DNA of 49,705 nt, the filler included, from Streblomastix strix (lineage: Eukaryota), in NCBI GenBank assembly GCA_008636045.1. It is 3 parts of 3 records of this genome, joined end to end, with 100 filler letters (N's around TTAATTAATTAA, not from the genome) between each part and the next. Parts side by side here need not be neighbours in the genome. Positions count along the whole stretch, not along the records: positions 16,610 to 33,113 come from SNRW01000800.1; 2 more parts are not named here. One strand, given 5' to 3'. How positions within the stretch are numbered: position 1 is the stretch's first letter; every line of letters starts with the position of its first letter. Shown one piece after another: positions 3,001 through 45,535 of the stretch. The notes below the pieces were generated by a model. It was not told the DNA's origin. It did not search any database and saw only the letters and a program-made list of their open reading frames with translations. A program made the translations under genes and the position numbers.

Positions 3001-4459
3001 CACCCCATAAACTTCTGTATCCTCGCAACTTGGTCATATTCGCTTATTCCTGGGAAAAGTGGGTGTGCAATAAATAGTTCAGCAGTAATACATCCAGCTG
3101 ACCACATATCGATGTGGCAGTCGTATCTGGTTGATTGAATATAAACCAAGATTATATGTATAAATATATATATAGATAATATATGAATGATATTATATAT
3201 GGGATTGTAAATAAATAAATAAATAATTCACAAAAATAAAATAATATTTAACAAAATAAATAAATAAATTACTATGATTAAATAAATCAATACAAATACA
3301 TATATATTCATACGGTGCGCCAATAAGCACTTCAGGTGATCTGTAATATCTGCTCTATATGTATGTATACAGAGTTTTACCTTCATAAGCTGCAGATCCA
3401 AAATCGATGACCCTAACAAATGGGAGGCAGCTGATTGATGGGATAAGAAGTATGAAATATATATTTAATTATATAGTATTAGATTATATATTGTTAGGGA
3501 GGATAAATATTAAAACATTAAGTTATACAATAAATAATATATAATACTGGTCAAGAAGGATGTTTTCAGGCTTTAAATCGCTGTGAATGAGTGAAATGTC
3601 GTTTAGAAGAGCTAGTGTGTCAAGTATTTGTGCCATTATCTACAATATATCATGGAAAAGAAATAAATTGAATAATTTAATATATTAATAAAAATAAATC
3701 GCACTTTTGCTATAAGGTTGAGCGAGAAACCGCGGAACTTATTTTGCTTCATCACAGAATATAAATCAATTCCAAGCATCTCCGTGACGAAACAGAAATG
3801 TCCATAGAATGTGAAAGAATCTACTAATCGTAACATATGGTGCTGGTCAACTTTATCGGCAAGTGAAATCTAACAAAAGGATAAGGCAAATTAAAATAAA
3901 AAATTAAAAATAAATTAAATTCAAGCAAAAATCGCTAAGCAAACGTCTGTTAGTATTTATCGTTCGAGGCCGGCTTGCTTCGTATAAGCAGGTAGGTTTT
4001 TTATTACTTTTATAGCATATGTTGCATGCGTTTCTTTTTCAAGGCATCTGAAAACTTGGCCGAAGCTTCCCTGCCCAAGAAGTGCTTCGACTGCATATTA
4101 CTACTTTTTTCCTGATATTGAATTACCATGCGGTTCAATAATATCGCCAACATGGAAAATATAATCTCCAGCTTCGTCTGTAAAAAAAGATATAAAATTA
4201 AAAAAAAATAAAACTGGTATAGCTTAACAAACTGTCACGTCCATTATTTTTTACTGCTTCGGATGGAACTGTAAGTATCTTACCAAATTTTGATTTATCA
4301 TCAGTGTATTTAAAATTTGATGAACAGGCACGAAAAGTCGAACAGAGCGAAAGTGTGAGTTTTTCCACCGTCTGGTTCAGCAAAAATCATTAATAATTTC
4401 AAAATAATATTATTTCTTAAATAACATTTGGATATTCATACGCTTGTACTTTTACTCAT
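1..4459 (-). CDS. YAK1: Yak1/DYRK-family dual-specificity protein kinase; multi-exon, long Q/N/S-rich C-terminal tail running off the window start (3' partial)
   Basis: Minus-strand exons give MSKSTS|TVEKLTLSLCSTF, LGQGSFGQVFRC, AIKVIKNLPAYTKQAGLE, HSDLKPENILL, IDFGSA, the activation-loop YxY in TYIQSRYYRSPEVLIG, and DMWSAGCI. Introns are GT-AG. The tail (1-1990) is open only if TAA/TAG = Gln. Confidence 0.88.
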
Positions 4460-16509: not shown

Positions 16510-16609
16510 NNNNNNNNNNNNNNNNNNNNNNNNNNNNNNNNNNNNNNNNNNNNTTAATTAATTAANNNNNNNNNNNNNNNNNNNNNNNNNNNNNNNNNNN
16601 NNNNNNNNN
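16510..16609. other. Assembly gap (N run with a TTAATTAATTAA spacer)
   Basis: 100-nt block of Ns with a central TTAATTAATTAA, identical in design to 33114-33213. Confidence 0.97.
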
Positions 16610-16610
16610 T

Positions 16611-19600
16611 TGGACTGATTACTAAAGATAATAAGCCGAAGAAGCAAAACGAATAATGAATGAAGAACATGATTTGATGCTATTATAAGAGTCAAAGAAA
16701 TTTACAAAACCAGAGAATTTTAAAGAAATATAAGAGTATTTTATTCTTCCATTATATTTTACAAGCTAATAATAGAACAAAGAAATATATTAAAAAATTA
16801 GAAAAAATGCAGATGAAAACATAATATAAATTGAAAATGAGACAGAAACATTGTTATTATTTCCACCAATTGACAACGAAAAATTTGCATCAGAGGTTAG
16901 ATGTGCAAGGTTAGGGTTTTAACGTGAAAGAGAAACCACATCAGACGATGGCATAAGTCCAATATATTATGAAAATTACATAGATTCTTGGGAAAAAATA
17001 GATGAATTTGTTGATTCAATTTATAACAAATAATATCATAGAGCATTTAATATACTATTCAATTTTGGTATTTTAGTGGAAGAATTAGATCATGATAAAA
17101 ATGGTAATGAAATCGTAAGTTATAAACATTTATTGCCACGAGAAGCAAGAACCTAAACACATGCACCAAAGAATATATATTAACACATGACGACATAGAT
17201 GAATACAAACAATATATAAAGGCTGAGATTATTGACATATAAAATTACTATCTGGATAGTAGAAAAGAACGTCATATATCAATTTATTAGATGATGATTA
17301 AAATATATAAATTGTAAAAGGTAGTGTTTGGGTCAAGTATCAAAGAATTGATTTAAAAACACTGGGATGGACACAAGAAAGTTTTATAAAAAAATGATGG
17401 AGAAAATAATATGTGTAATATGGAAGCACTAGCCAGAGCATTAAATCATGATAGCATTAATAAGCGGATTAAATCAAATTCGATTATAATCATTAGCCGT
17501 TAGTATCTTGTTAAGGTTTTAGATCTACCATTCGATGCAAAAAGTAGATAAATGACTGAATTTTTAAAAACATTTGAAGGTTAAGACTTTATGAAATACT
17601 CCTAAATTATAACGCAAAAGTTTATGATTAATTAGAATATATACTTTTATGACGATGAGCACAAAGTTTATTATTTGGTTGATATAATTAAATATGTTGA
17701 TGAGGAACAGGACGAACAAGACGAGACGAATGGTTAAGACGACGAAGGAGTCGCCATCATTAATGTTTATGATTACTCAAGGCGGTTTGCTACGCAACCC
17801 ATATCCGTTGATATGCTAATCGTTCAGGAAGAAATTGACGGAAAATTAGCGCAACACGCATTTGCTATAGCTAATAAGGAAACGCTGACCGGATTAAAAT
17901 TTCTTCCATTTTGCAAGTCAAAAGGGTTTGATACTAAAAGCCCACACTTCCTAAGAGACTATGAAAAACATACTAAATAGTGCGAATAAAATGGTGGTAA
18001 AATAGTTAAAACTGTTTAATTGGATTAGATATAAAAACCGTTTTGCCCACATATCACATAAAACAAAACTTATTAATATCTTTAGGCACATAGAAGATAA
18101 AGAGAATTCAAGCCTAAATAATACTATATAACAAATGACTTGGAAACAGTGGAAAAAATTGTTAATATATAATTTGGAAAGTCAGGCAAATAGATATCCG
18201 AACTAGTGCCTTTATGTGTTGCTTCTACTATTAAAAATAAATAAGGTATTCACACTATATATTCTGATTTGCGAAATGGAGATGATTTTATAACATAATG
18301 GTTAAAGGAGGTGTTCAATGAGGCAGTAATCATATAGTAAGATAATCAATATTTCACAAAGGCTATGCCTAAAATGATGGAAAAAAACATACAATATAAC
18401 GTAGAGGTACCAGTAATTGGATTCAATAGTTCAAAGTTTAATTTTTCGCTAATATTCAGGAATTTATAATGTGCTGAATGGGAAATAAAAAGTTATATTG
18501 GTAGTTCAGGAGTAGCCAAGCAAATAGTTGTTTTACATAAGCACTTGGATGTCATACTTAAATTTATTGATGTGCTGACTTATTACGTACCAATTACTTT
18601 AAAAGAATTTGCACAAACTTTTAATTCTGAAATGAATGGTTAAAAAGGCGTATTTCCTTATGAATTTATAAACACTGATAACTATAAAAGAAATTTTAAA
18701 CTAATCAGAACCATTTCCAATTGAATCATTCAATTCAATACTGAAAAATACATCAATGAAATAAGAAGAATATGACTAATATGTTTAAGATGCAAAGTTA
18801 TTCAAAAACAGATGGGATTACCCTTAATATTATAACGAACAAGATACTAAAATAATGATAGAACCGATTGATGCTTTGATTCAAATGTATATGAAGTTTG
18901 ACATCGATATGTTTAGTTTTATGTCAATGGCAGCGTGATCAAATGCAACTAAATATGCACTAGCTTATAAAGAGTTTAATGTAAATGGTTTTTACCCTAA
19001 ACAAATTGATAAATCACCTAAATTTGTTTTATAATAAAAATATTGGAATAGAAAAGCATATTATTATAAAATGTAGGATTTGCAACAAAAAAAGTAATAC
19101 AACCAATAACGTTTATGAGTCAGATTTCGAATATTTCAAACATCTATTTCAAGACAATAAATGTGCGATTTGTGGCGATGAATTCACACTAAATAATATG
19201 CCAACATTGGATAGAATTGATAATAAAAAGGGTCATTCAAAGGATAATGTTTAACCGTGTTGTTTGTCTTGTAATACCTTTTGCTCTAATAAAGACAAAA
19301 ACATTCAAAAACTATTCATATAACTAAAGAGATTTTGCAGCTTCAACCACTTACCAACTAATTTAACAGACATAGAAATTTATAAACTAATCAGGTAAGG
19401 CATAACTGGTGGCTTGTCTAACGTGAAGCATCGGGTGAATATTGCAGGGAAAGATTTTATAAAGAAATTTTGGTATAATAAAGAGATAAAAACAGTAACC
19501 GTTTTAACATCTAACTATAGAATAACACATATAATAGGTATAGATTTCAACTTTTTATATCCAAGTGTCATGTCATCGGAACCTCACAAATTTAAAAAAT

Positions 19601-20904
19601 ATACCGGTGGCAAAATGTATATGCCTGGGTCTGTTATTGGTAAAATATTGAATAATTCCGAAGAAAATAAGCAAAAAATAATTAAAATAATTAATAACTA
19701 AAATAGATTTAATAGATGGGGGCAATTATTTATAGCAGAAATAAAGGGACATATTGATGAGAATTATTTGAATGATTTTATTAATTTCCCACCAATTTTA
19801 AGGAATTATGAGTTTATTACTAATGAAGAAACAATGGGCAAATACATGTAGGAGCATATGAAAAATAGTGGAATAAAAACTGATTAAAAATAGCGGAAAC
19901 TAACAAATTTGTTATCAACGACGGATGGCTACATGTCATTTTCAAGTTATTATTTATGGTTTTTGATTGATGACTGCCATTTTATAATTGATGATGTTAA
20001 GTAGTTGGTTTCGTTTGATAAGCATGATAAGTTCAATGGGTTTGTGAAAGAATTTACAAACCAAAGAATTTAGGCAAAAATTGAAAGACAAAAAGGACTA
20101 GAACAATTTTGTAAAATCAATATGAATAGCTCGTATGGAAGTGTTGGCATGAATACTGAGAAATGTACAAAGATAAAAATAATGGGTTAAATGCAAGCAT
20201 TACAAGCCCATTTATCTAACACTTTTATGGATGATTAGAAACTAGCCGATGATGTTAATGCTGTACAAATGAATCCAGAAACTTGCGCATGTAAAACTTC
20301 TTTACAAGTTGCTTATTTTGTACTAGACAATGCCAAGTATTGGTACCTAAATTTCATTTACAATTTCATGTATAAGTGTTTGGATATGGACAAGTTGCAT
20401 TTTGTAGAAGGAGATACTGATTCAGCATATTGGGCGGTCAGCGGTGATGAAGATGCCGGAATTAAACAATAATTTAAACATGTTATAAAAAATTAATAGT
20501 TTTATGACGAAAATGCCAAGTATTTTTTCCCGACGGTTGAAGGTGATTTGTTGGATGAGAAGAAAATTTTAGGGCTATCTGTAGAACGATAAGGTCCAGA
20601 AATCATAGCATTACCACCTAAAAACTATTATATGAAGGTAGATGATAAGGAAAAAATAAAATTAAAAGGTGTTAATCAAAATAATAATAAAATTGCTAAA
20701 GACTAAATAATGGATAATATAACCAATGGAACAATTACAAAATGCACAAATATGAGGCTTGGTTAAAAGAATTACCAAATGAGCAATTTAGCTACAGTAA
20801 AAAATGGTATTACGGGAATACACACAAAAATGGTGGTACTAAGTGATTAATCATGTTGTCCTTACGTATTTGGTTTGAAAGCAAGTGATTATATGGTCTA
20901 ATGA
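16611..20904 (+). pseudogene. Protein-primed family B DNA polymerase (pPolB), >1400 codons, 5' end in the gap; disrupted
   Basis: ExoI YITNDLET, ExoII IGFNSSKFN, KGVFPYEF and ExoIII YNEQD. Inserted Zn/endonuclease VII-like motif CAICG..TLDRIDNKKGHSKDNVQPCCLSCN. Pol A GIDFNFLYPS, pol B KINMNSSYG, pol C EGDTDS. Stop TGA at 20902-20904. Frameshifts at ~17180, ~18688 and ~19090; in-frame TGA at 18936-18938. Confidence 0.92.
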
Positions 20905-21069
20905 GCCAAAAATAAAAATCAAACCTTTTATTTATATGGCTAATTTAATAGTTTAAGGTATAAAATAAATCTCCAGTGAGTTGCCAGTTCCAAGTCTTTA
21001 CTAATAATTGCATCATTCAAAAATTATTCTATTTATTATACGGTTAACTATGACCAATGAATTTACAGT

Positions 21070-21288
21070 TCATTCTTTCTCATTTTTCTTTTACAAAAAA
21101 AATTATATAACATAAACCGTAATATTTAGTGGTACCAATACTATATCAAAATAGCCCCATAATTTTTTAATTAAATTAACGGCATCGGTTAATTGTTCAG
21201 GAATAGATACAGACAAAACAGATATAATAAAATTAACGCCATAAAATATGTAATTCATTAGACTCATAAACAAATTCAATAAGTTCAT
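21070..21288 (-). CDS. Small hydrophobic (possibly membrane) viral protein, ~72 aa
   Basis: Track ORF MNLLNLFMSLMNYIFYGVNFIISVLSV... extends through TAA=Gln to TGA at 21070. It is preceded by the element's TTTTTAAAAATAATAAAATG motif. Confidence 0.5.
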
Positions 21289-21306
21289 TTTATTATTTTT
21301 AAAAAC

Positions 21307-22323
21307 ATGACACTACATGAGATACAAAACATAACATTTTCAAACTAGGATTTACTAAACGAATATAAAACACGACCACTAACCAAAAACTCCTTATTCC
21401 TCGTTAATGGAAACCATTATATTGTTGGGGCTGTTGGTAGTGGTAAAACAACATTAATGTCCAAGCTAATTGTAATATACTAAAAAGTAATCAATCCTTA
21501 CATATTATACTTTTCAAATTTTGGTGCTGATGAGACAATGGCATTAAATCTTAACAGTAAAAACATATCATTAACCAATATTACATATGCGGAAGCAATG
21601 TTGTTTTTACCAGAATTTGATGAAATAAAATATTCAACAAAAGAAGTATATACTTGGTATAAATTGCATGAGTAAGGTTTCAAATATACTAGTGATTTTA
21701 TAAAAAGAGTCGAAGAAAAAATAATATAATAAAATGAAGCTAAAGACAACGAAAAACCAGATATATATTTAAAACGAATAGCTGATTTATTCAAGTAGTA
21801 TTTTATAGAAACCATTAATAAATATAGCTAGCCATTTAAAATATTACGTTTTGATATTCCAGCACTTATATAAAATATTAGCTATGAAAAGAAAATGAAA
21901 GTAATAGATGATAAACAAACAGCTGATATAAAAATATTGAAAATACCAGTACTTTTTAAGGCATAACTGTTAAATACACTAATGCTTTTTGATGAAATTG
22001 GAAGTAATACCGATATCCAACGTTTTAATTCTTCACTTGCTAAATCAATTGCCCATTTGGTTAGTGATTCAAGACATTCAAAAAATACGATATTTTTTAT
22101 AGCTTAACGTCCAATTTATTTGTTTAAGACTGCAAGGATATTATCCCATGTAATAGCTATAGTAGTTAATCTTGGAGAAAGTGATTTAAAACAAGTATAT
22201 AAAGAAAATACGATATAAAACCTTGACTTTGAAGAGGTTTTACTGTTGTATTCCACGTTATAAAAATATGAATTTATTATTTTAAACATGCTTTTCAGTA
22301 AGTATGAAATATTAAGAAATTGA
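21307..22323 (+). CDS. A32/FtsK-HerA-family genome-packaging ATPase (338 aa, intact)
   Basis: Walker A YIVGAVGSGKTT (~21418-21453), Walker B TLMLFDE (~21977-21997), and the A32-type motif DSRHSKNTIFFIAQRP. Open to TGA 22321-22323 with TAA/TAG = Gln. Absent from the supplied track. Confidence 0.9.
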
Positions 22324-22342
22324 TTATTTTGTAGGTAAATAA

Positions 22343-22690
22343 ATGTCTCCGAAATCACCATGTGATCCTTCGTCAATTCCTGAAGGAATGGTTTAATTGT
22401 GTGAATTAGCCACAAACATTGGCCTATAATATAATGCTATGGACTATGAAATTTTCAAAATATTTGAAGCGCTAATAGAAAATAATGATATGAACGTGCA
22501 AGAAAAATAAATGTATCAATAATATAAAAGCCAGTCTGCGATGCAGGCTTTCCGTAGGAAGTCCGTATGCGGATATTCCCAAGGGAATTATTCATTTCTC
22601 GATTCTTTGCAGGATAAAACAGTATAAATAATAGAATATATTTAATACCTCAATTTATTGATGCGGTTAAATTCATCTGATAATAATTGA
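22343..22690 (+). CDS. Hypothetical viral protein (115 aa)
   Basis: MSPKSPCDPSSIPEGMVQLCELATNIG... starts 19 nt after the ATPase stop and is open to TGA at 22688. Confidence 0.55.
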
Positions 22691-23105
22691 CCAAACCACT
22701 ATTTTATGTATCATTAACAAAGTCATTATATATTTATTTTTCCTGCTCATTAGCTTCAGATATAATGTACTTTTTTATTTATTATGGTTTGTTATTTTAA
22801 TCTAGTTGTTTTTTAATAAAATTATATTTATTTTTATAATATTTTTCTTACTCGTTGAACAGTTTATTTTTATAATCTTCCGCATCAACATACTGCTTTA
22901 TTTGTTGCAATTTGTTTTACTAATTCATGAACTACTTATTTATTCTTGTTAATTCTTAGAGTAATGGGTGCAGTATTATTTCTTTATCTTTTATTAACAA
23001 TTTTTGCAGTGCGTCAATTGTTGCCTTTATTGAATCATCACTTTCAAAATTTTATTTAATTACTTCATTAAACAATTATTTTATAGGGTCTTTGCATGAT
23101 GTCAT
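22650..23105 (-). CDS. Hypothetical viral coiled-coil protein (151 aa)
   Basis: MTSCKDPIKQLFNEVIKQNFESDDSIKATIDALQK... open to TGA at 22650. Upstream motif TTTATTTTTAAATAAATG. Confidence 0.65.
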
Positions 23106-23180
23106 TTATTTAAAAATAAATAACAATTTTTAGTAAAGTAGTCCAATAATTAATGAGTGCATTAGCATGAATGAAATGAA

Positions 23181-25190
23181 TCATGGAGGCACCGACCCCA
23201 AAGTAATAGGTTTAGCACGCCAATATACTTTTGCCCCATCGCTATAAATCCCCCTTCTGTGCCTACACTATTTACACCCCATAAAATCGGATTCCCTGCT
23301 GAATAATTAACTGACCCATTTGTTGCTCCATTAGTTGCCCCATTAGTTGCTCCTGTGCCAGCTATAACTGACCCATTAAATGTTAAAGTATTTCCATCGG
23401 CACTTATACGTAATCCTCTATTTACGTTATTATAATCAGATGATAACGATATCGCAAGACCAAATGGGAAAATATTAGATGATGCAGGTGAATAAATTTA
23501 CGATTAATGATCTACCATTCCTGTTGTCTATGTCTTATCACATCCAAATATGACAGAACAACCCACATTACTATCCTCACATCTTGCTATTCTTAATCCA
23601 TCCGCAAATGATACAGAATTAGGATTAATTTGTACAATACCATTTTATGTGAATGGGGCATTATTTATTGTTTCAGTATTATATTATAAATTTGGCATTA
23701 AATCTTCTTTTGTTGTAAAATCACTTGGTAAAGTATCCTCAAGTTAATTAGTAAGCATGTTAGATACTACAGGAGACCCATTTTTTGTATAGCTTAATAA
23801 ATCAATTCTTCCCTCACTACCTTAATAATTTCCAACAGTCATCCATAAATCTCCATATTTACTTAAACCTGTCCCATAATATAACATAGTTGGTAGTCTA
23901 AATGATGTATTAGCTGTTTATTATAAATAGTGATAAATTATTGCTTTTAGTCCTGTAGTATCATAAGTAACATGCAACTTTAGATCATTAAAATTACTTC
24001 TAGAATAAAATTTAAATTCTACATTAGAATCTCCAAAACTAGTATATGCTTCAAATCTATATAATTTTATATATTTTGCTGTTGCCCCAACATCTTATGA
24101 AAAACTTTAAGATTTAATAATGTTTTTGTTTGTTGTATCACCATTAGCGCAAAGTATTTCCGTAGCCAATCCTCCAGTCTTAATAAATTTTGAATCTCTA
24201 ATGTTTCCATCATTTGTTAATTACTATGGATGGACATGGTCATTTCTACTATAAAAATCACTTTTACCATTAGTCGCAGCAGTAGCATTTACTAACGGAA
24301 CATTTGCAGTTGTTGGATCAACATTTAGTGGGTGCTAATGTGTGGCACTAGCATATATATTAGCCGTGCCTGCTGTTCCTGTTCCTGTATCTTTTAGTGG
24401 CACATCATTACTTAGATTTACATGATACGTATGGTCAGACCTGGCATAAGTAGTAGCAACTCCTGCCTCACCATTTGCAGTATCTTTTGTAGGTAAAATA
24501 GTTGATACTTATAAAGGATGTTAATGGTCTCCTCTTGCATATTCATTACTTGTTCCAGCACTTCCATTTACGATAGAGTTTGATGGAATCGAATCACTGG
24601 CAGGGGTTACCTAATCAGGGACCACATCGCCACTATTATACCAATCAGCCGCAGGCGGGTTCCTTGTCATCTCATACATCCATACTGTTCCACTTTCTGC
24701 ACTAAATGCAAAATCACCACTAGCCGAATTAGGCAAATTTTATATGGTACTATTTAATATATAATATCCACGGAAATGTATTTATCTCGCAAGTTCTTAC
24801 TAAATAGTTAACATATCATTTTTTTAATCCATCAATATCTTACTCTACCCCTCCAATTGATGACTACAACTAGTTTACTTCATTAATTAACTGGTTAATT
24901 TATGCAACAAAATCAAAGTTTATTACTTTTAAATTCTTTATTGTCAGCAGTCCATTTGGTGCAATTTTGAGTGCATAATCAGCAGCATAACCATCAACTA
25001 TTTAATTATTAGCTGCATATACTAGTGCATTGTCACTATCTATAAATAGTTAATATTCATCATTTTGCAAAATTCCACAGCTAGAGCTACCCCTTTTCTA
25101 ATACTATATATAATATGCTATATCATTAGTGATAAGCTGGCGAACTGTTCGGATTTGTTGCTGTGTTAATGGATTATTTAAGGTAATCAT
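23181..25190 (-). pseudogene. Fibre/spike-like structural protein (~670 aa) with four His-containing repeats; two single-base frameshifts
   Basis: MITLNNPLTQQQIRTVRQ, coiled coil, then repeats YARGDHQHP / YARSDHTYH / YASATHQHP / YSRNDHVHP, KFIKTGGLATEILCANGDT, and a G/N/T-rich C-terminus RGLRISADGNTLTFNG...YWRAKPITLGSVPP-TGA. Frameshifts in the T7 run 24819-24825 and at ~23247. Confidence 0.7.
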
Positions 25191-25240
25191 TTTAATTTTA
25201 TAAAAATAAAAAGTTTAAATGTTATTAATGGATATGGTTA

Positions 25241-25447
25241 TCAACGTTTATTTACGAGTCGATCCTCAGCTCCTGTAAGATTAGCCCCAGCACCTAATGC
25301 CCCATCAATTCCTGGGTGTATCATTCCTACAGGGCCTGATATTGTTGATAGTACTTTATGAAGAGTTGGTGCTACCCATTAAGTAGCATGTTTAATACCT
25401 CCCAAAATTTTACTTCCAATGTTTGCTATACCACTGAAAAATCCCAT
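25241..25447 (-). CDS. 68-aa Gly-rich amphipathic peptide with Met-Gly start (candidate membrane-penetration virion protein)
   Basis: MGFFSGIANIGSKILGGIKHATQWVAPTLHKVLSTISGPVGMIHPGIDGALGAGANLTGAEDRLVNKR-TGA; intact and head-to-head with the capsid-sized ORF. Confidence 0.7.
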
Positions 25448-25471
25448 TTATTTATTTTTAAAAATATTAAA

Positions 25472-27452
25472 ATGTCGTTCTCAGCATCTGACTACCTTTA
25501 AAGACTATCAAAAATGCAACACTCCGATAATATTAGTAGATACGTGCAACTTGGTGAGGTGTTAAAAACAGTATCAATTCATGCCTAATCCTTCGCAACT
25601 TCTAAGCAATAATTTTTTTAACTAGACAGTAAATTAGCTTACTTCATCAGGTGTTAGATATACACGTGCGCCGTTGGCTGCAAGAGGAACAGCAACTTGT
25701 TCAATGGTATAAACCTGCTAAGTAAATTGGACTATAACAATCCCTGCAAATATATTAGCCGTTTAATTAAATAGGTGCGAAGTTTTAGGAGCTGATGCTG
25801 ACAACTTAAATGCAAGAGTTAATTATAAAGCAAAAGCTAACCTTATTACACCAAAAGACAAAAATATGAAATAAGGGAATTAATTTTATTATGGTAAAGC
25901 TGCTGATGGTCCAGAAAATAGCGAAGATTTGAAGTTTTGGCTTGGTTTCTCCACAGTTCGCGGACCATTTAATTAGTTTGCAATATTACGAGATGCTTAG
26001 AACTTATGGAATACAGCAATATATGCGAGAGAGTAAGCAGTTATTTGTTCAAATTCATTAACAGATTTATGCACTAATAATTCCGTCAGTGTCTCACCAC
26101 TCGAAAGTATCATTGCATGCAAACGTCATTGTGGTGTATTTATTGATATACCACTTAGTGAAATAGATTAAGCAGCAGGAGGAGCTACCCCATATTTTTA
26201 TCTGATACCACATGATATAACTTTTAGCGGTGTATTAGATTTGAAACAATTAAACCCAATTTTTAACTCATTCCCAGTACTAACAAGAAACTATGCGTCA
26301 TTATACTTATAGCTATGGGTGTAAGATTTCCTTTAAGATTTAAAAATTGTATGGCTAAATAAATCAGATATTATGGGAAATAATCATCTAGCATATGCAA
26401 TGAATCCACCAGAGAAATCAGACGTTGTTTATCTTTTAAGTAGATTAGATGATGCAGACCCACTAATTTATTCAGCGTTTAATGTTAGGCTCGTTAATAT
26501 GTAAAATGTTGCAAATGATGCAAAACTACCATAAAATTCCATTAGTTAAATATCAGATGCTAAATTTGAAGAGTTAGAAATATAAAATGTATGTTTTAAT
26601 ATAGAAAATGAAGAGGCAATTATTCAGATTATAATTGCATAAAGAATAATAAATTTCCCTACACAAATCATAAGGTCCTAATCTTCAAATTTTCCCTTCA
26701 GTGGTTTTTAGGCTGTTTCTGGTAGTATGTAAAGTATAATGTTATTTGCTAATGTAAAGCACTATTCATGACATTTGCCATGCCACAATATCCTACTTGG
26801 TTTTTCCCTATACTATTTTATAACTTTAATTTGGTTGTTGATTAAAAGAATTTAATACCATAACTGTATAAAGCACTGACCCAAGCAACTAATAGCTAAA
26901 TGTTTGATTGTTTCGTTGATTAAGATGTTGTAAGTGCCCCATCAGACCTATACCATTCGCTTACTTTTGAAAATATAAACACTAAATGATAAAGATGATT
27001 TTTATGGACATGTTGATGCTGGAAGTGATTTAAAAAGCAATGCAAATATATTTTATTATACTACATTATTCAATGGAAGCAAAGCTACAAAAACATTATA
27101 CCCAAATAAATATATGCTGGCATGTAATATGGCAACTGATGACTCATTTATGTGAGGTTATAACTCTTCAAAAATTGGTGCTAGATCTAATATATAAGTG
27201 ATTTTTAACGGAAATTTGACCAAAGGTATTGTAGATACAATGCAACTAAATCCATCATAGAATTAGAATGATTTTAAGCAATTTATTGGTATGCATAGCT
27301 ATCCGGATCCACACCAGGTCGCACTAACACCTATCATGCACTATTTATGTGTAGCATTTATTCGTATAACTTTTGATGACAACCCAGATCCATAAGTATT
27401 AAGCATGGATGTTATAGGAGAGATAGGCGGGTCATCAATTAGAAGCGGTTGA
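25472..27452 (+). pseudogene. Probable major capsid protein (~660 codons), disrupted
   Basis: MSFSASDYLQRLSK...FWLGFST..GPFNQFAI..LWNTAIYAREQAVI...DLKQLNPIFNSFPVLTRNYASLYLQLW...IGEIGGSSIRSG-TGA (27450-27452). Frameshifts at ~25616, ~26757 and ~26985; in-frame TGA at 27153-27155. Capsid identity is inferred from size, beta-rich composition and context, not from a recognised motif. Confidence 0.55.
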
Positions 27453-27453
27453 G

Positions 27454-27477
27454 TAAGGACACCGTAAGGGGTCCCTA
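27454..27477. terminator. GC-rich hairpin between convergent viral genes
   Basis: TAAGGACACC-GTAA-GGGGTCCCTA directly after the capsid-ORF stop. The terminator role is inferred. Confidence 0.4.
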
Positions 27478-27515
27478 ATGATTAATGGGTAAAAATAATT
27501 GCAATAATTGGTTTA

Positions 27516-27891
27516 TCATTATTTTTGTTTATTAATCATGGCGGTCTGCTTTGCAGCCCTGGTTCATCCATATATTGAATTCCTAACCTCTTCACTAATA
27601 TCTTCGCTATCCATTTTTATCTATGCAATTATTAATATAGAACTAAGCAAATTATTACAAGCTATAACCATTAATGATATACTAGTAATTATTTCCAAAA
27701 CCATTTATATAAAATTAAAACTAAATTTTTCACCGGCAAATTTTCGATTCGCAAACATACTTTATTGCTGCATCCCAAATAATTTTAAAGATTGCATGCC
27801 AATTTATATTTTATTACTCAAACGAATAATTGATGTACTACGTGCTAATGCTTTCATTAAATCCTTTGCTTGCTAGACCTAAGGGCTCCAT
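27516..27891 (-). pseudogene. Hypothetical viral protein (~125 codons) with a hydrophobic segment; degraded
   Basis: ATG at 27891 preceded by TTTTAAAAATAAATAA. The best frame (QVQQAKDLMKALARSTSIIRL...VLEIITSISLMVIACNNLLSSILII) needs a frameshift near the start and has an in-frame TGA at 27564-27566. Confidence 0.4.
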
Positions 27892-27909
27892 TTATTTATT
27901 TTTAAAATG

Positions 27910-28672
27910 TTAAGCTGATTAATTATGAATAGCATAAGAATCGCAAAACTACACGCAAAAGTCATCAGGTAAATGAAGCTAGCACATCATATTAATTACT
28001 ACGTTACCATTTGGATTAATAAAACAATCTATAGGAATGGATCCGGTCCAATCTATTGGATAATCTAATACCTTTTACGCAAACATAACAGCATTAATGG
28101 GAATGTTATGCGGGGTACCTGAAAATTTTGACTTTATGGCGTTATTTATAATTGAAAACATAGTAAATCCAGATTCCGTTAATGCGTTAGGATCTGAATG
28201 AGTTATTTACAACGATATATATACTCGACTATTTTACGTTGTTAATGTTCCCCAAATTAAATGTTCATACATTCCATAAGCAATTGATTAGTACGTAGCA
28301 TTTTAAATAGGTTCATAGTCTAATTTGTCTTTATCTATCGTATCACCATTAGCTAGTAAAATTTGATTACTTGCACCATTATTTTTAACGAATTTTTCAG
28401 CAACAATATGCTGTAAAAAAGTCTTTACTCCATTAATCACCTGATTAGTACGTAAATTTACATAATCAATTGAATTTCTGAAAAATTAACTTAAATAATT
28501 GAAGTATTTTATAATATCGTTATCCACTATTTATAAAAGAGTATTTTTTTATCTAGTTTAATTTTGCAATTTTTCCTGTATTTTTTTTTTATAGTCTTTT
28601 TTGCTATTATTACTGGGTTATCAAATCATCCTCATCTAACAATGTTAAATCGCTAATTGGTTAATCGTTCAT
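27910..28672 (-). pseudogene. Second, shorter fibre-like or minor structural protein (~250 aa)
   Basis: MNDQPISDLTLLDEDDL..(frameshift in T10 run 28581-28590)..YVNLRTNQVINGVKTF..KFVKNNGASNQILLANGDT..DCFINPNGNV..DSYAIHN. Shares the KFxKxxG...IL.ANGDT motif with the large fibre. The 3' end is uncertain (next in-frame TGA at 27730). Confidence 0.6.
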
Positions 28673-28696
28673 TTTATAATTCAAAAATAAATCTTA

Positions 28697-29266
28697 TCAT
28701 TCGTAATTTCCATTTCGTAGTTTATCAAGATATATTTTAATACGTTTATTTTTAATGTCATACACCCATATGTATTAGTATTATTATTATTTTTAGGTAA
28801 TAACATGTAATTTTCGAAACTTAAGACCATTATGATAATACACATTAAAATCTTAGTCAAAACTATATCCTTCTAAATCGTGCGCATTATATAAATCTAG
28901 TCATTAACTACCTACTGGTAATTCATCAAAATATTCAAATGGCCCTCCGTCATAACCAGATAAATTTTTCATATTATCTGCCGTAGAAACCCAACGCAAA
29001 TTTTCAAGTCGATTATCAGTTTTAATATGATTTTTATGATCAATGTCAGGTAAGTTATCGGGATTTGGTAAGAATTAATTAGCTAAAACACGATGATATT
29101 AATAATCTATAGAGTTTAATTTAATACGATTATATCCGCTTTTTTTAATAAACAATATTTTTGGTATAAATCCATTTGAAATTCTTCGAATAATATATGG
29201 TTCTACATTCAAAATTTAATAATCTTCATCAACAACTAACCGAATAAAGACATTAATTTCTTCCAT
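28697..29266 (-). pseudogene. HNH homing endonuclease (HNH_3-type); C-terminal part frameshifted
   Basis: YHRVLANQFLPNPDNLPDIDHKNHIKTDNRLENLRWVSTADN. First in-frame TGA at 28901-28903; coding-like sequence continues in shifted frames to a TGA at 28697. Confidence 0.85.
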
Positions 29267-29320
29267 TTTTATAATAGATTAAAAAAAATAATAAAAAAAT
29301 AAATAAGGATAAAATAATTT

Positions 29321-29980
29321 TCAAAAATCATTTTCTGTTATTTCCATCTCTGGTGCTTCGTTTATACGGATGAAGTCGCAATTTACTCGATAAAGTTTTT
29401 CAATAGAATTATATAGCACATTATCCAATACTTTTACAGATAAATTTTTTATTAAAATATCTTATACTCTAATAAGGTCCTTTTTCTTGAGTTTCTTTAA
29501 TATGCAAGTATGCGGTTATATAATTGCTTCCTCAAGCATTATTTCAACATCATTTTCATCATTCTGCGTGATGAGTGCCCAGAATTTTATTAAATTATTA
29601 GATGAAAAAACAAAATCATCTCCTCGTTATCTGTGGGTAATGGTGCGCCAAATAACATCGATCACAAACTTTTATACCATGAGATTAGGATGTGATAGGT
29701 ATATACTTTTTGGTTATTCTTCTGCTAGCTATTAAATTGCCTCTTCTGGTAATACTTATGCGGTTGTTCTATCAACCTCCTAATGCTTATTTATGTTATA
29801 TTTTTTATGCGGTATGTTTTCATTCTAATTTTCAAAAGGTTTTTATTGTGCTGTTTCTTAGTCTGTTGGCATTATTTTTATACGATTAATTTCCTTATCA
29901 ATTAGTTAGAGTCTAATTTTATCCTCATCAATAAGATCTATTTTCTTGATATCCGACATTTATTTTTTACTTTTCGACAT
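29321..29980 (-). CDS. Hypothetical viral protein (219 aa)
   Basis: MSKSKKQMSDIKKIDLIDEDKIRLQLIDKEINRI... open to TGA at 29321 with TAA/TAG = Gln. Confidence 0.7.
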
Positions 29981-30037
29981 TCTTACTTAGTTTCTTTCAA
30001 CACCCTTTATCATTTTATTAATTTTTAAAATATTAAA

Positions 30038-30733
30038 ATGGAATTATCGCATGCTCTTAAGAATTTGATAGAAAACGGAACAAATATTGAATACTTTGAT
30101 AAGGGTTATGTCGCATAGATTAACAAATAAATAAAAATATATGAGGATTGCAAAAAGCAACTGCGAAAATTGACATAAACATAATAAAATATGCTATTGC
30201 TATAAGCTCGTGGAGGTGAAGAAATAAAGAAAAAACCATCAAAATAAATAGTTTAAAAATAGATTGTGGATGATGAAGAAGATTTTATAAATTATGAAAA
30301 ATAGGAGAAAAGACACAGAGATATACAGGAAGATATGAATGAAAGCGATGATGAAACGATTAGCTAAAGCGAAAGACCCGAAAATAGGACATAGTCCTTT
30401 GAGAGAATCGAAAGACCAATAAAACATTTCCGTGAGGCTAAACAACCACATAAAAAAGTTATAAAAGCATTAAAATAGCCATAAATCAACTATACTAATC
30501 CATAAATAGATTTGGAAGAATTAATACGTTTAAGAACTGAAAATAATTTCAAAAAGTAATAGCATTAAGACGCTATAAAATAAATAGAGAAATACAAGCA
30601 AAAAATAAAACGTTATAAGTAACCAAAATAAGACATTGAAAAATAAGAAGCCCCGGAAATTTAACAGAAATAACCACAACAGATTTATAAACATGAACAA
30701 CCACAATTTAGCGAATATGATTTATATAATTGA
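30038..30733 (+). CDS. Hypothetical viral charged/coiled-coil protein (231 aa)
   Basis: MELSHALKNLIENGTNIEYFDKGYVAQINKQIK... open to TGA 30731-30733. Upstream motif TTTTTAAAATATTAAAATG. Confidence 0.7.
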
Positions 30734-30784
30734 AAGAATTATTCTAATTTAAACAATTATTTAATTATTTTAATTATATTAAAA

Positions 30785-31350
30785 ATGGACTACCTGGACG
30801 ACATGGAGTATCATTAATAGTATTGGTAAAACGAAGAGAAAAAACTAATAAAAGAATAAAAATACTGGGACAGAATAATTTTAAAAAATTGTAACCAAGA
30901 ATAAAACGACTGAGAGATTTAACGTATAATTTGTGAGTTAAAATATGCGCGTAAAATATTAAGTGAATTAGATAAAGCCATGGCAATGAAAACAAATATT
31001 ATCAATATAGACGAATAGGGTAAAATAGGCTCTATTGGTAATATTCCATGGAATAATTTACATAAATTTTAGCTATCAGATAATTAACTACTTTTAACAA
31101 TGAAACAACAGAAGGATTACGAAGAAAAAATAAAAACTCTTAACGGTGATGAACTTTTTAATTATATTAATGAAATGCGAACGCTTACCTAGAAGTACAA
31201 CAAAATACGTAATGAGCATGTAGAACAAGAAAAATAACGCAAACGTTAATGGCTAGAAGAAATTGATGAAGAAATAAAACAATCAAAATAACGCTTACGT
31301 TAATAGCTAGAAGAAGCCAATGATTGTTTTTTTTGGAGTTGTTTGATGAA
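30785..31350 (+). pseudogene. Hypothetical viral coiled-coil protein with an internal TGA; 3' end approximate
   Basis: MDYLDDMEYHQQYWQNEEKK...; in-frame TGA at 30911-30913, after which the same frame continues as EIQRIICELKYARKIL...EQEKQRKRQWLEEID. Confidence 0.5.
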
Positions 31351-31480
31351 AACTTATTATTTTTATTATAACATTTATTATATATAAAATTATTTTATCC
31401 CAATTATATAAGCCATTCATCAAGAAAAAAATTTTGTCGTATTGGCGGCTCGACTAGCCTTTTTTTTGACAATTTTTTAC

Positions 31481-31507
31481 CCGGAACACCTGGAACACCT
31501 GGAACGG
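31481..31507. repeat. Three tandem 9-bp GGAAC-containing repeats
   Basis: CCGGAACAC CTGGAACAC CTGGAACGG; a GC-rich island just past the last viral ORF. Confidence 0.8.
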
Positions 31508-31732
31508 TCCGTGGCTATGGCATTTTTTGTTAAAACTCCATGCTAAAATTATTATATAAATTATATGTATCCATTATTTGTTGTTATATATTATTATAAA
31601 TTTATGTGGGGACTTTTTGGAGATATTTTTTTAAAAACCATTTTTTAACTGTTATTTATTTATTTTAATTATTTTATATAAGGGGTTCATATTCATTATT
31701 TATTATAAGTCTCCGACATTTTTTAACAAAAA

Positions 31733-31982
31733 AGTAGTGTATAATGGTTATTTATGCAATAACTTCAAAAGGTATTAGTATTTATAAAAAACCACGCAAG
31801 TTATTTTTTTTTGATTGATGGTTTAACAAATACAATAATATTTTCGAACAAAGGCGTTAGCAAGCTGTGAGAAAATTTTATAAATTTGAAGGCCAAAAAT
31901 CTTAAAAAATGAAGGAGTGGAGATTTTTTATAAAACTGAACACTTTTTGAAGTTGGGGCATAAATCACCGTTATATACTACT
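31733..31982. repeat. 250-bp unit bounded by ~60-bp imperfect inverted repeats with AGTAGT...ACTACT ends
   Basis: 31733-31791 AGTAGTGTATAATGGTTATTTATGCAATAACTTCAAAAGGTATTAGTATTTATAAAAAA versus the reverse complement of 31924-31982 AGTAGTATATAACGGTGATTTATGCCCCAACTTCAAAAAGTGTTCAGTTTTATAAAAAA. Confidence 0.8.
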
Positions 31983-32659
31983 AGTATCAATGAACTCTTT
32001 CAAATTTTTATTTGTATAATTATTTAAAAATAACATTAATTATGACTACTATTATTTAAAAGCATTCCTACGTGATATATACTTAATTTATTTTTTCTTG
32101 CAAAAAAATCATTTATTTTGTTTTATATATATGTATGTAAAGTATTTTTTTGTATTATCATACCATTTCGTCAGAATGAGAAAATGATCAAATGCTGACG
32201 AAGAAATTCACTGATTATTTAAAAAACGCATTTAATACGTTTTTCTCACCGTATAATGTATATTTTGCGTCAGTCTTAACAATATTCTTTATCATAGTTC
32301 ATTATTATTCTTAATTATCTAATTTATTAATAATAATTATTGTTGAACTGATTAAAAAAGCAAATATTACTTCAATTTCAATAATTAAATGATTTACCTT
32401 TTTGAAAAGCATAATCATCATATTAATGAAAATAACAATAGATGCAATTTTGATAAAATACAAGAACATATATTATAAATCGTTTATATTCTAATTCTAT
32501 CAATTACATAATAATTATCATAATCATTATAATTCAAACAACTTTTTTTTCTTCATAGAATACATTAATTCCTTCACTTGCAATAATAAAAAAAGTTAAT
32601 GATTGTAAAGTAGAAAGAAAAAATAACAAAGATTTAATCAAGAAACAGAGAAAACCATC

Positions 32660-32880
32660 TCACTATTGTTATATTGGATTGTTATTTGATTAAATTTCTT
32701 TTTCTTCTTTATAAATTTTATATTTATTTATTATTTTGATTATTAATAATCTTCAACCTTATAAACAGAAGAAAGAATCTAAAATATTTTATCATTTGCA
32801 AATCCATTAACTATTTCATCTGCAAACCACATTTCTAATCTACTGGTTAATACAGAATTTGTTCAAATTCATTATTTGCC
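32660..32880 (-). CDS. Probable 3'-terminal exon of an unidentified host gene (remainder upstream or in the gap)
   Basis: VLTSRLEMWFADEIVNGFANDKIFQILSSVYKVEDYQQ...QQQ-TGA at 32660, preceded by an intron-like AT-rich tract ending in AG. No ABC motifs. Confidence 0.35.
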
Positions 32881-33113
32881 TTTTTAATTTTTAAAATTTT
32901 TAATATAAAATAACTAATAATATCATAAAACTCGAAATAAGTTAGATAGATAATTAACAAGCAGCAATCAACCAATTATCCAAAAATTGGATTCAAACTT
33001 TCAAAATATTTTTATTTATACTAATCAGCAAAGTATTATTTATCAATTTTTCAGATTAATTTATATAAAAATAATTATTACTTGCCAAATTTAATAAATA
33101 TTTAAATAATTTA

Positions 33114-33213
33114 NNNNNNNNNNNNNNNNNNNNNNNNNNNNNNNNNNNNNNNNNNNNTTAATTAATTAANNNNNNNNNNNNNNNNNNNNNNNNNNNNNNN
33201 NNNNNNNNNNNNN
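33114..33213. other. Assembly gap (N run with a TTAATTAATTAA spacer)
   Basis: 100-nt N block, same design as 16510-16609. Confidence 0.97.
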
Positions 33214-33249
33214 AATAAAATAATAATTAAAAATAAACTTACAAAATAC

Positions 33250-36200
33250 CTCAAATAAAGTTGGATCTTGTGGAGTTGTAGCAATATTCGATCTTAATGT
33301 AGTGACTCCCATATCTCTTTATATGTCTCTGCCATCAATAAGAATGTATGATGGTTTGTATTATTATGATGAAGATGAAGATTATTAATTATTATCTTAT
33401 ATTTATTCATTTTCTTCATCTTTTGGGTTTCTTTCAGCTTCAACTAATCTAAGCAATGTTAATAATATCGTAGATTTACCTGATCCTGTTCTTCCAACTA
33501 TACCAACCTATAATAAACAATATCATATAATAGTAAATAAACAATATATTAATATCTTCAATATATTATTATTAGTTATAATAACCTTACTCCCTCCTTT
33601 AATGTGAATATCAACATGGTCAAGCACACGTTATAGACCTTCTCTGTATCTGACACAAACATTACTAAATTATATGTCACCTTTAGAAGGCCAATTCTTG
33701 TACACTGTAAAAGAAGGAGTAATTTTCTTATTTTTCTATTTCTTTGATTTGGGTTTATTTTATTTCTTTGGTTTTGAAGCAGATTTTCTTTTTGTGTTTT
33801 GACTGAGCAATTATCTGTCATTTTCATTTCCTTATTCTTCTCTTTCTTTCTCTTCTCTTTCTTCTTTCTCTTTCTCTCTTTATTTATATTCATAATCTTT
33901 CTCTTCCTATTCAATATCATATATTTCTCTTAATTTCTCAACTGATGCCATTTCATTCTCAAGAAATGATGTCATTCTTATTAAATGTCCAATATTACTA
34001 ATGGTTCCTTATGAAAGAGATAAAGCTAATCCAAAATTGGACATTTTAGCAACTGATGAGTAATAATTGAGTATAAATATTATTAAAATATATTAAATTA
34101 ATAAATGATTTCATATTTTTATATTTAAATTAATAAATACCTCCACCAATCCCTTTAATCATGGTTCCAACAATTCCAATCACAAACATCATTCCAGCTG
34201 CTATTATTTCTAAAAATAATGACTAAAATCTACTTAATGATAATTATATAAATGAAGCTGATAAAGATATATTTAAATAATCATCGTGTGATCTAATGAA
34301 ATATGACTTAATAATGGAAAATAATATACAATGATAAAAAAATGATGTGAATATATATGATTATTAAAAATTACCATTTCTGACATAATTTATTATTTTA
34401 TTCACATTTTTATATTATTGTATTTACTAAACCTATTTATCAAATGCTCTTATTGTTTAAGCGCCAGACAAACATTACTACAAATTATGGATAATCAGAG
34501 TTCTTGTTAATGAAAAGAATCTAATTAAAATAGAAAGAAGGAAATAAGAAATTAAAAACGAAAGAAAATGATAATAAAATAAAATAAATAATTATATTTA
34601 CCTTCTAACATTAAGCATGGCTTTAGACAACTTATTTTATATAACAATGAATAATAACATCATTGGAAGCAGTGGAAGTGCTAACCACGGCATTGATATT
34701 ACTGTTCCTACAATAATGAATAAGTGAAAATTAAAAGAATAAAAGATTATTAAAGGAATAAAATATACCTGCAAATGATACAATAACAATAAAGAAGTTG
34801 GTAACAAAGTTTATAAGATGAACTGGAATTGCTTCATCAGCTGCCTACAATTAAATAAATAGGAAAAATAAATTAAAATAATATTTCAATAAATTTTCCT
34901 TCAATTTATCAATAATTAATCGTTAATATGTAATACTTATTAATCTTTGGATATTCTATTTAATAATCTTCCAGTTGGTGTAATATCAAAGAATTATATT
35001 GGAGCATTTAAAATCTTCTTAATTACTTTAGATCCAATGTTCTTTGCAGCTTATTAGCTTGCCTTCAATTATATGGAAGAAAATAAATTTAAATATAAAA
35101 TAAAATAAAATATTGCATTTTATTATTATTAAATATATTATTAATTTTTATACTTTTAATAATAATAAATTTCTTGGAAATATTAGTACTAATGAGACAA
35201 TACTCAGTACGAAGAAGAATAAGAAATATTAATATTATGAGATAGAAGTCTATAATATTGGAGAAGGCAGAGAATTAGAAGAATAAAATAATGTTCGAAT
35301 TGTTGATGATATGAAGATGAAACTTGGAATCAAAATCTTTCTCATTAATTTCTCATATGGTCTTTAATTCCTATATTCATATTCTAATTAGCATCAACAT
35401 ATATTAGTTCTTTCTTTATCAATATCTTCTTTATCTTCTTCTCCATTATCATTAGCCCACCATCCTAATACATACTGACTTCCAACTTTAGTTCCTTCAC
35501 TCAATAAGAAAATCAATATAACAGTTATTATTAAGAAATACTTTGCATTCTTAATATAGAATAAATATATTGATAATGAAACATGACCTTATGTTGTATC
35601 TTCAGCCGATGTGAGTTTTCCTTTTTGTTATTGTTGTTATTATGATGTTAATTAATAATCATTATTATTTTCTTATTACTCTTTGATCTATTTCTTTTAT
35701 TTAATTTCATATGATTTAATATTATTATCTTCTAGATTCTATTTCAATTTATCATTATATGTCTTATCTCCTTTCATTTTACCTTCTTAATCAATTTCAT
35801 TTCCAATATATTCACCAACTCTATCAACAAATAGAGAAGGTGGACCTGAGAAATATAAATAATATGAATTGGAGAGTAAATATATGAATGAATGAAATAT
35901 AATTAAATAATAATAATTTTTTACTTAATTTAGTTTTAATTATATAGTCTGTACCTTCCATCTCAATGTTTCCTTTTGAGTCTAATGAAATAACATAATC
36001 AAAGAAGTGCATATATTTTGTATGGTGAGTTGCCATTATTATTAATTTCTATTTGTTTATCTGATTATCAGAAGAAGGAAATTGTGTTGGTGAAGGAGAA
36101 GTGGATGGAGTTGAATAATTAGATGAATCATATGATGGAGACGAATGAGATTAAATATTAGACTGAATTGTATTGTTTATTTTCTCTATTTTCTCATTTT

Positions 36201-41135: not shown

Positions 41136-45189
<4,054 letters not shown>

Positions 45190-45535
45190 TGGTAATCTAA
45201 TAAAATTAAAATTATGCAAAAAGGAAAGAATAAAATAGAATCGAATAGACAATATGGTATAAATCAAGTTATTTAAATATTTAAATAAATTGACTATTCT
45301 GGTTGATTAATGAGGATATTTGGTAATTTTTAATTTTATTTATATTTGTATTTAACGTTGAATGATTAAGTTAAATCGGAACATTGCAAACAAAGGAGAG
45401 CACAAACGATTAAGAATCAAAACCAAGCAATAGGCTCATGAAGGATTGTTTTCTTTTGGATCGGATGTACATCGATTATTTTCGTATTAAAGCTAACAAT
45501 CAAATACTTTTTTATTTAAATATGTAAATTTTTAT

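What the first reader, a model, noticed from the sequence alone, without database searches (positions are those of the whole stretch)
16610..31510. Endogenous Polinton-like virus hidden by a reassigned genetic code
Seen: about 13 intronless, tightly packed ORFs that open only when TAA/TAG = Gln. They include pPolB with all exonuclease and polymerase motifs, an intact A32-type ATPase, a ~660-codon capsid-sized ORF, two fibre-like proteins and an HNH nuclease. Established: pPolB plus A32 ATPase plus jelly-roll capsid is the core of Polintons/Mavericks and Polinton-like viruses. Inference: this is a divergent virus lineage of a gut protist (probably an oxymonad) that standard-code annotation would miss; most of its genes are orphans to my eye.
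Basis: partly seen in the sequence, partly recalled or inferred. Interest (0 to 1): 0.9.

Follow-up and report, generated by a model that had tools for sequence, protein, structure and literature searches.

The report
Broken recoded Polinton-like virus, termite protist
This is a broken copy of a Polinton-like DNA virus, written in the unusual genetic code of a termite-gut protist and likely inserted in its genome; such recoded viruses are already published for this protist, but this one carries a capsid family that the published survey likely missed.

Summary
Real, but known in kind. Window 16610-33113 is one 16,504-bp contig between artificial linkers; NCBI lists its capsid fragment as Streblomastix strix EZS28_005267. 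Read with TAA/TAG=Gln it holds a protein-primed polymerase B with an endonuclease VII/HNH insert, an intact A32-type ATPase, a capsid gene whose family folds as a double jelly roll (Z 15.9 to PBCV-1), a free HNH gene and orphans. Corrections: polymerase and capsid are each broken (three frameshifts, one stop), 'fibre' is unverified, and neither a host junction nor an integrase is seen. Bellas 2023 already reported S. strix endogenous viruses in this code (820 capsid hits, one cluster), and this scan noted a recoded viral insert on other DNA (e1-7142348). What looks new: this ~650-aa capsid family (266 database hits) is only 17% like the Trichomonas-type capsid that resembles the published example, and its Gln codons are fully shifted (TAR:CAR 82:32, equal to the Leu control 89:35), while 31 related polymerase loci use the standard code. 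That points to long life in a recoded host. Verdict: new member of a known kind, interest 0.33.

The parts
16510..16609 (.). Artificial contig linker (N44-TTAATTAATTAA-N44); left boundary, cuts the polymerase gene
16611..20904 (+). [quoted passage not shown]
   Evidence: Collinear match to intact 1477-aa P0121 at 24-49% identity; 62 long homologues; phrog_1907 DNA polymerase 2.4e-7; motifs
19162..19275 (+). Endonuclease VII/HNH Zn-finger domain inside the polymerase, between exonuclease and polymerase motifs
   Evidence: phrog_1035 endonuclease VII 6.1e-14; Cys, Asp-Arg, His, Asn positions kept in 60 of 60 homologues
20936..21310 (+). Orphan ORF of about 120 aa, probably broken near 21095; small minor-capsid candidate, untested
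   Evidence: no family
21307..22323 (+). Intact A32/FtsK-HerA-type packaging ATPase, 338 aa
   Evidence: 37 homologues, all S. strix; Pox_A32 in 5 of 21 aligned members, best 6.2e-6, not in the window protein itself; motifs
22343..22690 (+). Orphan ORF, about 115 aa
   Evidence: no family
22650..23105 (-). Orphan helical ORF, 151 aa
23102..25190 (-). Large Thr/Gly/Ser-rich ORF with repeated A-R-x-D-H-x-H motifs, broken near 24819 and 23245; fibre role not verified
   Evidence: no match; sibling pieces in S. strix proteins
25241..25447 (-).
   Evidence: Hydrophobic moment 0.41-0.48, shuffle p 0.001-0.007 for the first three windows; sibling pieces 69-90% identical
25472..27452 (+). [quoted passage not shown]
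   Evidence: 83-87% identity piecewise to intact sibling P0002; family fold
27730..28620 (-). Second fibre-like ORF; shares a 28-aa motif with the first (46% identity, E 9e-5); role not verified
28901..29266 (-). Stand-alone HNH endonuclease
   Evidence: Pfam HNH_3 5.4e-10; phrog_59 1.4e-19
29321..29980 (-). Orphan ORF, start uncertain
30038..30733 (+). Orphan charged ORF, 231 aa
30914..31354 (+). Orphan coiled-coil-like ORF, ends uncertain
31733..31982 (.). 250-bp imperfect inverted repeat, 59-nt arms 80% complementary, starting AGTAGT and ending ACTACT; possible terminal or sub-terminal structure
31983..33113 (.). Non-coding, 19% GC, still covered by many variant contigs to about 33050, so not shown to be unique host DNA
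33114..33213 (.). Artificial contig linker; right boundary

Best explanation
The contig is a broken copy of a multi-copy Polinton-like (Maverick-type) DNA virus of the oxymonad Streblomastix strix, written with TAA/TAG as glutamine and likely integrated in the host genome. Inferred working cycle of intact relatives: the linear 18-25 kb DNA is copied by its own protein-primed polymerase, host RNA polymerase and ribosomes make the proteins (so the genes must follow the host code), double jelly-roll capsomers assemble, the A32-type ATPase pumps the DNA in, and fibre-like and amphipathic proteins would serve attachment and entry. The lineage likely spent a long time under selection in a recoded host before this copy broke, because Gln codons are at compositional equilibrium while the proteins are only lightly decayed. 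How it integrates is not shown: an integrase may lie beyond the left contig end.
For: Shown: capsid family fold (P0245, 28% identical to sibling P0002 over 646 aa; model pLDDT 73.6; the top 15 of 48,161 chains are all double jelly-roll capsids, best Z 15.9, rmsd 3.4, 332 aligned; Foldseek 3.9e-10; the sibling's own weaker model, pLDDT 50.1, gives the same class in its top 12 rows at Z 4.4-6.7). Polymerase and ATPase homology. Copy number: 266 capsid hits, the 120 listed all S. strix, 23 of 120 at least 620 aa; variant contigs 90-99% alike cover 30 of 30 bins in two studies besides the possible source. Code: host RPB2 exon on the next contig reads through 24 TAA/TAG with Rpb2 domains intact; two near-invariant Gln of the polymerase are TAG 19074 (Gln in 54 of 55) and TAA 19321 (46 of 58); Gln ranks first of 20 at 55 TAA/TAG sites by profile log-odds; Gln TAR:CAR 82:32 against Leu TTR:CTR 89:35. 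The 31 related polymerase loci hold 0-5 TAA/TAG per matched segment, against 12-35 in the window's segments. Established: PMC10120064 reports S. strix endogenous viruses in this code.
Against: No virus-host junction, target-site duplication or pair of terminal repeats is on the contig. An integrase profile built from 2 related loci finds 8 of 31 loci but not the contig (E 3.7). The code test on distant homologues is modest: by BLOSUM score Lys (0.28) beats Gln (0.19), and Gln log-odds at TAA/TAG (-0.24) is far below that at CAA/CAG (+1.04, 30 sites). Decay is mild: 3 of 96 conserved polymerase columns are violated, inside the range of 59 intact homologues (0-16; 16 of 59 have 3 or more), and PMC10120064 warns that stops in such elements are often assembly artefacts. 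The folds were made on relatives, not on the window's own broken gene.
Confidence: 0.8

Rival explanations
1. A free (not integrated) virus replicating in the sampled protist cells, with the breaks made by assembling many similar genomes from amplified DNA.
For: No host junction or integrase on the contig; sibling contigs lack the indels at 17180, 18686, 19087, 24819-24820 and 26984; mild substitution load; artefact warning in PMC10120064.
Against: Hundreds of diverged copies at 48-88% capsid identity, 97 of 120 shorter than 620 aa, fit a genomic graveyard better than one infection; three catalytic-motif substitutions are not typical assembly errors; some sibling capsid genes lie on contigs of 26-33 kb, longer than the 13-25 kb given for Polintons in 10.1101/2023.08.22.554363.
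Confidence: 0.12
2. Simply one of the 820 published S. strix capsid hits (Metamonada cluster 40), so nothing is new.
For: Same host and code; the survey used PSI-BLAST from Trichomonas capsids, which might reach this family; the two capsid types do align weakly over 353 columns. The supplement is cut, so the S. strix contig list could not be read.
Against: All 820 hits sit in one 25%-identity cluster, but this family is 17% identical to the Trichomonas-type capsid, hhalign probability 11.5%; a profile of that type finds none of 271 family proteins below E 0.026; 0 of 5 locus tags, 3 tag prefixes and 3 motifs were found in the stored supplement. That the Trichomonas-type loci equal cluster 40 rests on my by-eye match of alignment A5 to the one example shown.
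Confidence: 0.25
3. A chimeric misassembly or a capsid-less self-synthesising plasmid or transposon next to unrelated host repeats.
For: No single laid contig spans the stretch; the assembly is fragmented.
Against: Sibling records link the same genes: ATPase EZS28_014148 and capsid EZS28_014150 both lie on an 8,922-bp contig; mis-spliced sibling models fuse ATPase with polymerase or fibre pieces and capsid with the small ORF; the capsid fold is clear.
Confidence: 0.03

Closest known systems
Endogenous Metamonada-group Maverick-Polintons/PLVs of S. strix and Trichomonas vaginalis (PMC10120064, capsid cluster 40)
   Same: Host, TAA/TAG=Gln code, very high copy number, divergent capsid confirmed only by structure; related polymerase clade
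   Different: Capsid about 650 aa against about 550 aa and only 17% alike; ATPase profile barely matches one Trichomonas-type ATPase (hhalign probability 3.6%); no rve integrase after the polymerase, where several related loci have one
Polintons with pPolB2 carrying an HNH insert (oomycete and nematode; 10.1101/2023.08.22.554363)
   Same: HNH-type nuclease domain inside the polymerase; that paper finds pPolB2 most abundant in Metamonada
   Different: The paper calls the HNH unique to oomycete and nematode pPolB2, yet here it is kept in 60 of 60 homologues; whether it is the same insert, or this polymerase is a pPolB2, was not tested
Classical Polintoviricetes (Polinton/Maverick, adintoviruses)
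   Same: pPolB, packaging ATPase, double jelly-roll capsid; a small amphipathic gene recalls the cupiennin-like membrane-active genes of adintoviruses (PMC8502044; likeness by type, not by alignment)
   Different: rve integrase, Ulp1-type protease, penton, terminal repeats and target-site duplication not found on this contig; capsid has no Pfam match
MELD viruses / PLVs of protists (PMC8502044; 10.64898/2026.06.19.733378)
   Same: About 15-20 kb, pPolB with fibre-like and HNH genes
   Different: The 2026 preprint leaves Metamonada elements ungrouped because of their divergent capsids; no relative found in IMG/VR in 5 scans

Membership tests
Preplasmiviricota / Polinton-like virus (broad) | [quoted passage not shown] | tested here: met
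   Family models match only DJR capsids at the top; Atlas features and structure agree; tested on relatives P0002 and P0245
Preplasmiviricota / Polinton-like virus (broad) | A32/FtsK-HerA packaging ATPase | tested here: met
   Pox_A32 in 5 of 21 members, best 6.2e-6; motifs; the window protein alone gives only generic P-loop hits; no ATPase tree built
Preplasmiviricota / Polinton-like virus (broad) | Single jelly-roll minor capsid (penton) | tested here: inconclusive
   No family hit in any ORF; candidate 20936-21310 not folded
Polinton/Maverick (Polintoviricetes) | Protein-primed family B polymerase | tested here: met
   PF03175 on homologue P0132 at 1.6e-10; this copy is broken
Polinton/Maverick (Polintoviricetes) | Retroviral-like (rve) integrase | tested here: inconclusive
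   Absent from the contig, but the contig starts inside the polymerase
Polinton/Maverick (Polintoviricetes) | Ulp1/adenain-type maturation protease | tested here: inconclusive
   No Pfam or PHROG hit; contig incomplete; orphans not folded
Polinton/Maverick (Polintoviricetes) | Terminal inverted repeats and 5-8 bp target-site duplication | not testable with these tools
   Left end missing; only a local 250-bp inverted repeat; right flank stays multi-copy; no genome held
Metamonada capsid cluster 40 (PMC10120064) | Capsid at 25% identity or more to the Trichomonas-type capsid | tested here: not met
   17% identity, probability 11.5%; no profile hit in 271 proteins; proxy sequences from loci L006-L025, matched to the cluster by eye
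Endogenous viral element | Physical link to host DNA | tested here: inconclusive
   Linkers on both sides; no junction in laid contigs
Host-code (table 6) element | TAA/TAG read as Gln, TGA the only stop | tested here: met
   read-through is firm, the residue Gln is best but not sharply resolved from viral genes alone

The most novel reading that the evidence does not exclude
S. strix hosts a second, undescribed and still active virus lineage with its own capsid and ATPase families, fully recoded to TAA/TAG=Gln and so locked out of the standard-code parabasalids that share the termite gut, possibly integrating without an rve integrase; its capsid family extends to unnamed relatives at 21-28% identity on contigs up to 22 kb and would define a new group of Polinton-like viruses.
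Probability: 0.25. Interest if true: 0.6.

Novelty: new member of a known kind. Interest (0 to 1): 0.33.

Why it matters
The headline (a Polinton-like virus in a protist's reassigned code) is published for this very host. The value left is narrower. A second capsid family gives more sequences for a group that a 2026 preprint still could not place. The codon result makes a testable case that a eukaryotic DNA virus lineage adopted its host's code while functional, which would act as a host-range barrier in a gut where related standard-code elements occur. It also shows how public gene models hide such elements by splicing over frameshifts and calling them host hypothetical proteins.

Tried and rejected
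No whole genome was held, so other copies could not be read as DNA. IMG/VR scans with the capsid alignment, single capsids and the polymerase found no relative (0 confirmed); a metagenome scan with the capsid alignment found none among 590 pattern matches; these scans back-translate with patterns that may miss recoded DNA. No RNA holder listed. Pfam gave no match for the polymerase pieces or capsid; the ATPase profile had no PDB hit below E 0.08. Fibre claim: no match; its likeness to phage fibre motifs is recalled, not tested. I first read 31982 as the element's end with host DNA beyond; rejected as unproven because variant contigs continue to about 33050. No ORF of 80 aa or more from the 31 related loci (338 ORFs) matched the contig outside the polymerase, and none of the 31 carries this capsid or ATPase family; 7 of 31 carry the other capsid type. 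No tRNA genes. The S. strix genome paper was not held. Earlier-finding searches by place and by two proteins returned nothing.
Full report
Setting. The window is three contigs joined by N44-TTAATTAATTAA-N44 linkers at 16510-16609 and 33114-33213. The finding lies on the middle one, 16610-33113, 16,504 bp. A search with the main capsid frame returned a 99% identical 364-aa protein on a 16,504-bp contig, named by NCBI as Streblomastix strix EZS28_005267. The outer contigs carry ordinary intron-broken eukaryotic genes: RPB2, a kinase, an ABC transporter piece and a helicase piece. An RPB2 exon of 587 codons reads through 24 TAA/TAG. These genes fix the host code but are not linked to the element.

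Observation. Under the standard code the polymerase, ATPase and capsid frames are shredded (19, 12, 22 stops); under table 6 they open and end in TGA. About 13-14 ORFs fill 96% of 16611-31354 (intervals chosen by hand). The ATPase is intact. The polymerase and capsid are not: each lies in four frame pieces with one in-frame TGA. The public gene model bridges the capsid breaks as if they were introns. Contigs from the laid runs lack several of these indels, so they are private to this copy or to its assembly.

Polymerase. A search for longer proteins gave 62 hits of 1,173-2,823 aa at 34-50% identity; P0121 aligns collinearly across all four pieces. All six motifs are recognisable, but Exo II has Asn where 53 of 55 homologues have Asp, Pol A has Phe where 59 of 60 have Ser, and Pol B has Val where 60 of 60 have Asp. 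Overall decay is mild: 3 of 96 conserved columns differ, within the range of intact homologues. An endonuclease VII/HNH domain sits inside the gene (phrog_1035, 6.1e-14) and is kept in 60 of 60 homologues. HNH inserts in Polinton polymerases are known (10.1101/2023.08.22.554363, passages; 10.1101/2024.03.18.585575, passages).

Capsid and ATPase. The capsid search gave 266 hits; the 120 listed are all S. strix, 23 of them at least 620 aa. A profile search of 1.84 billion representatives gave 213 hits, among them unnamed full-length relatives at 21-28% identity to P0002, some on 20-22 kb contigs. The intact sibling P0002 folded poorly (pLDDT 50.1), yet its best matches were all double jelly-roll capsids. 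With a more diverse alignment the relative P0245 folded at pLDDT 73.6 and matched PBCV-1 at Z 15.9 (rmsd 3.4, 332 aligned), with the top 15 rows all of this fold (Foldseek 3.9e-10; viral library led by virophage, adintovirus and giant-virus capsids). The Atlas agrees. The ATPase has 37 homologues, all S. strix, and 5 of 21 aligned members hit Pox_A32.

Other genes. A free HNH gene is firm. The two fibre-like ORFs share one 28-aa motif and nothing else was found. A 68-aa amphipathic ORF faces the capsid gene; adintoviruses carry small membrane-active genes of this general type (PMC8502044, passages), a likeness I did not test by alignment. No integrase, protease or penton was identified.

Genetic code. 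Against 60 non-Streblomastix polymerases, Gln ranks first at 55 TAA/TAG sites by log-odds, but Lys leads by BLOSUM score and the signal is far weaker than at CAA/CAG; two near-invariant Gln are encoded by TAG and TAA. In four core frames Gln is TAR:CAR 82:32, the same first-position ratio as Leu TTR:CTR 89:35; over twelve frames it is 178:61. Since the copy is only lightly decayed, so complete a shift cannot be post-insertion rot; I infer long replication in a recoded host. The 31 related polymerase loci from metagenomes and bins hold 0-5 TAA/TAG per matched segment, so they use the standard code.

Is it integrated? Not shown. The contig starts inside the polymerase. At the right end a 250-bp inverted repeat begins AGTAGT and ends ACTACT; from memory this resembles Polinton ends, but variant contigs continue to about 33050. 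Integration is inferred from hundreds of diverged, mostly truncated copies, and pieces 90-99% alike occur across the whole stretch in two studies besides the possible source.

What is known. PMC10120064 (passages, section 13 and searches of the supplements, whose main spreadsheet was cut when stored) says S. strix endogenous viruses use the host's table and lists 820 capsid hits in one cluster seeded from Trichomonas. The Trichomonas-type capsids found beside related polymerases (alignment A5) resemble that paper's one shown example by eye, and match this family at only 17%, probability 11.5%, with no profile hit in 271 proteins. I put it at about 75% that this family was missed; the unseen part of Table S5 could overturn that. 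A 2026 preprint (10.64898/2026.06.19.733378, passages) still leaves Metamonada elements ungrouped; another (10.64898/2026.10.13.758929, passages) does not mention Streblomastix. Literature searches; one search found one paper holding both 'Streblomastix' and 'Polinton'. Other papers in those calls were seen only as listings. This scan earlier noted a recoded viral insert in another genome (e1-7142348), unchecked here.

Verdict. A real Polinton-like element in a reassigned code, broken, probably endogenous, and of a kind already published for this host. The residual novelty is a second capsid family and the codon equilibrium. New member of a known kind; interest 0.33.

Noticed in passing
window 16510-16609 and 33114-33213: Artificial linkers with stops in all six standard frames join unrelated contigs; under table 6 they do not stop frames, so ORFs appear to run across them.
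   Followed up: yes
window 41800-45400 (-), 3080-3920 (-), 33200-36700 (-), 46800-47600 (-): Host genes in table 6 with introns: RPB2, a protein kinase, an ABC-transporter piece and a helicase piece.
   Followed up: partly
L016-L031: Sixteen contigs inside prokaryotic genome bins (Alphaproteobacteria, Bacilli, Elusimicrobiota, Brachyspira, Mycoplasmatales) carry this polymerase family, several with integrase or capsid genes; probably mis-binned protist virus DNA. P0167 is likewise labelled Methanobrevibacter.
   Followed up: partly
L008:54-7347: Intronless eukaryotic genes (Rho/Rac-like, Rab-like and ubiquitin-domain ORFs by eye) lie directly upstream of a broken polymerase: a likely integration site of a related standard-code element.
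   Followed up: no
L025:7149-7664: A small amphipathic ORF lies just before the other capsid type, as the 68-aa ORF does here, suggesting a shared layout.
   Followed up: partly
window 16611-20904, TAA/TAG sites: Gln is less conserved in homologues at TAA/TAG sites than at CAA/CAG sites, with Lys and Glu common; many TAR codons may have arisen by single changes from Lys or Glu codons. Unexplained.
   Followed up: no
window 31483-31506: Short tandem GGAACACCT-type repeat just inside the non-coding right end.
   Followed up: no
L015:1975-2595: An ORF that looks by eye like an ephrin-receptor exon lies upstream of a related polymerase piece; chimera or different host, not examined.
   Followed up: no
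window 19162-19275: The HNH insert is kept in 60 of 60 homologues, although a published study calls such an insert unique to oomycete and nematode pPolB2.
   Followed up: partly
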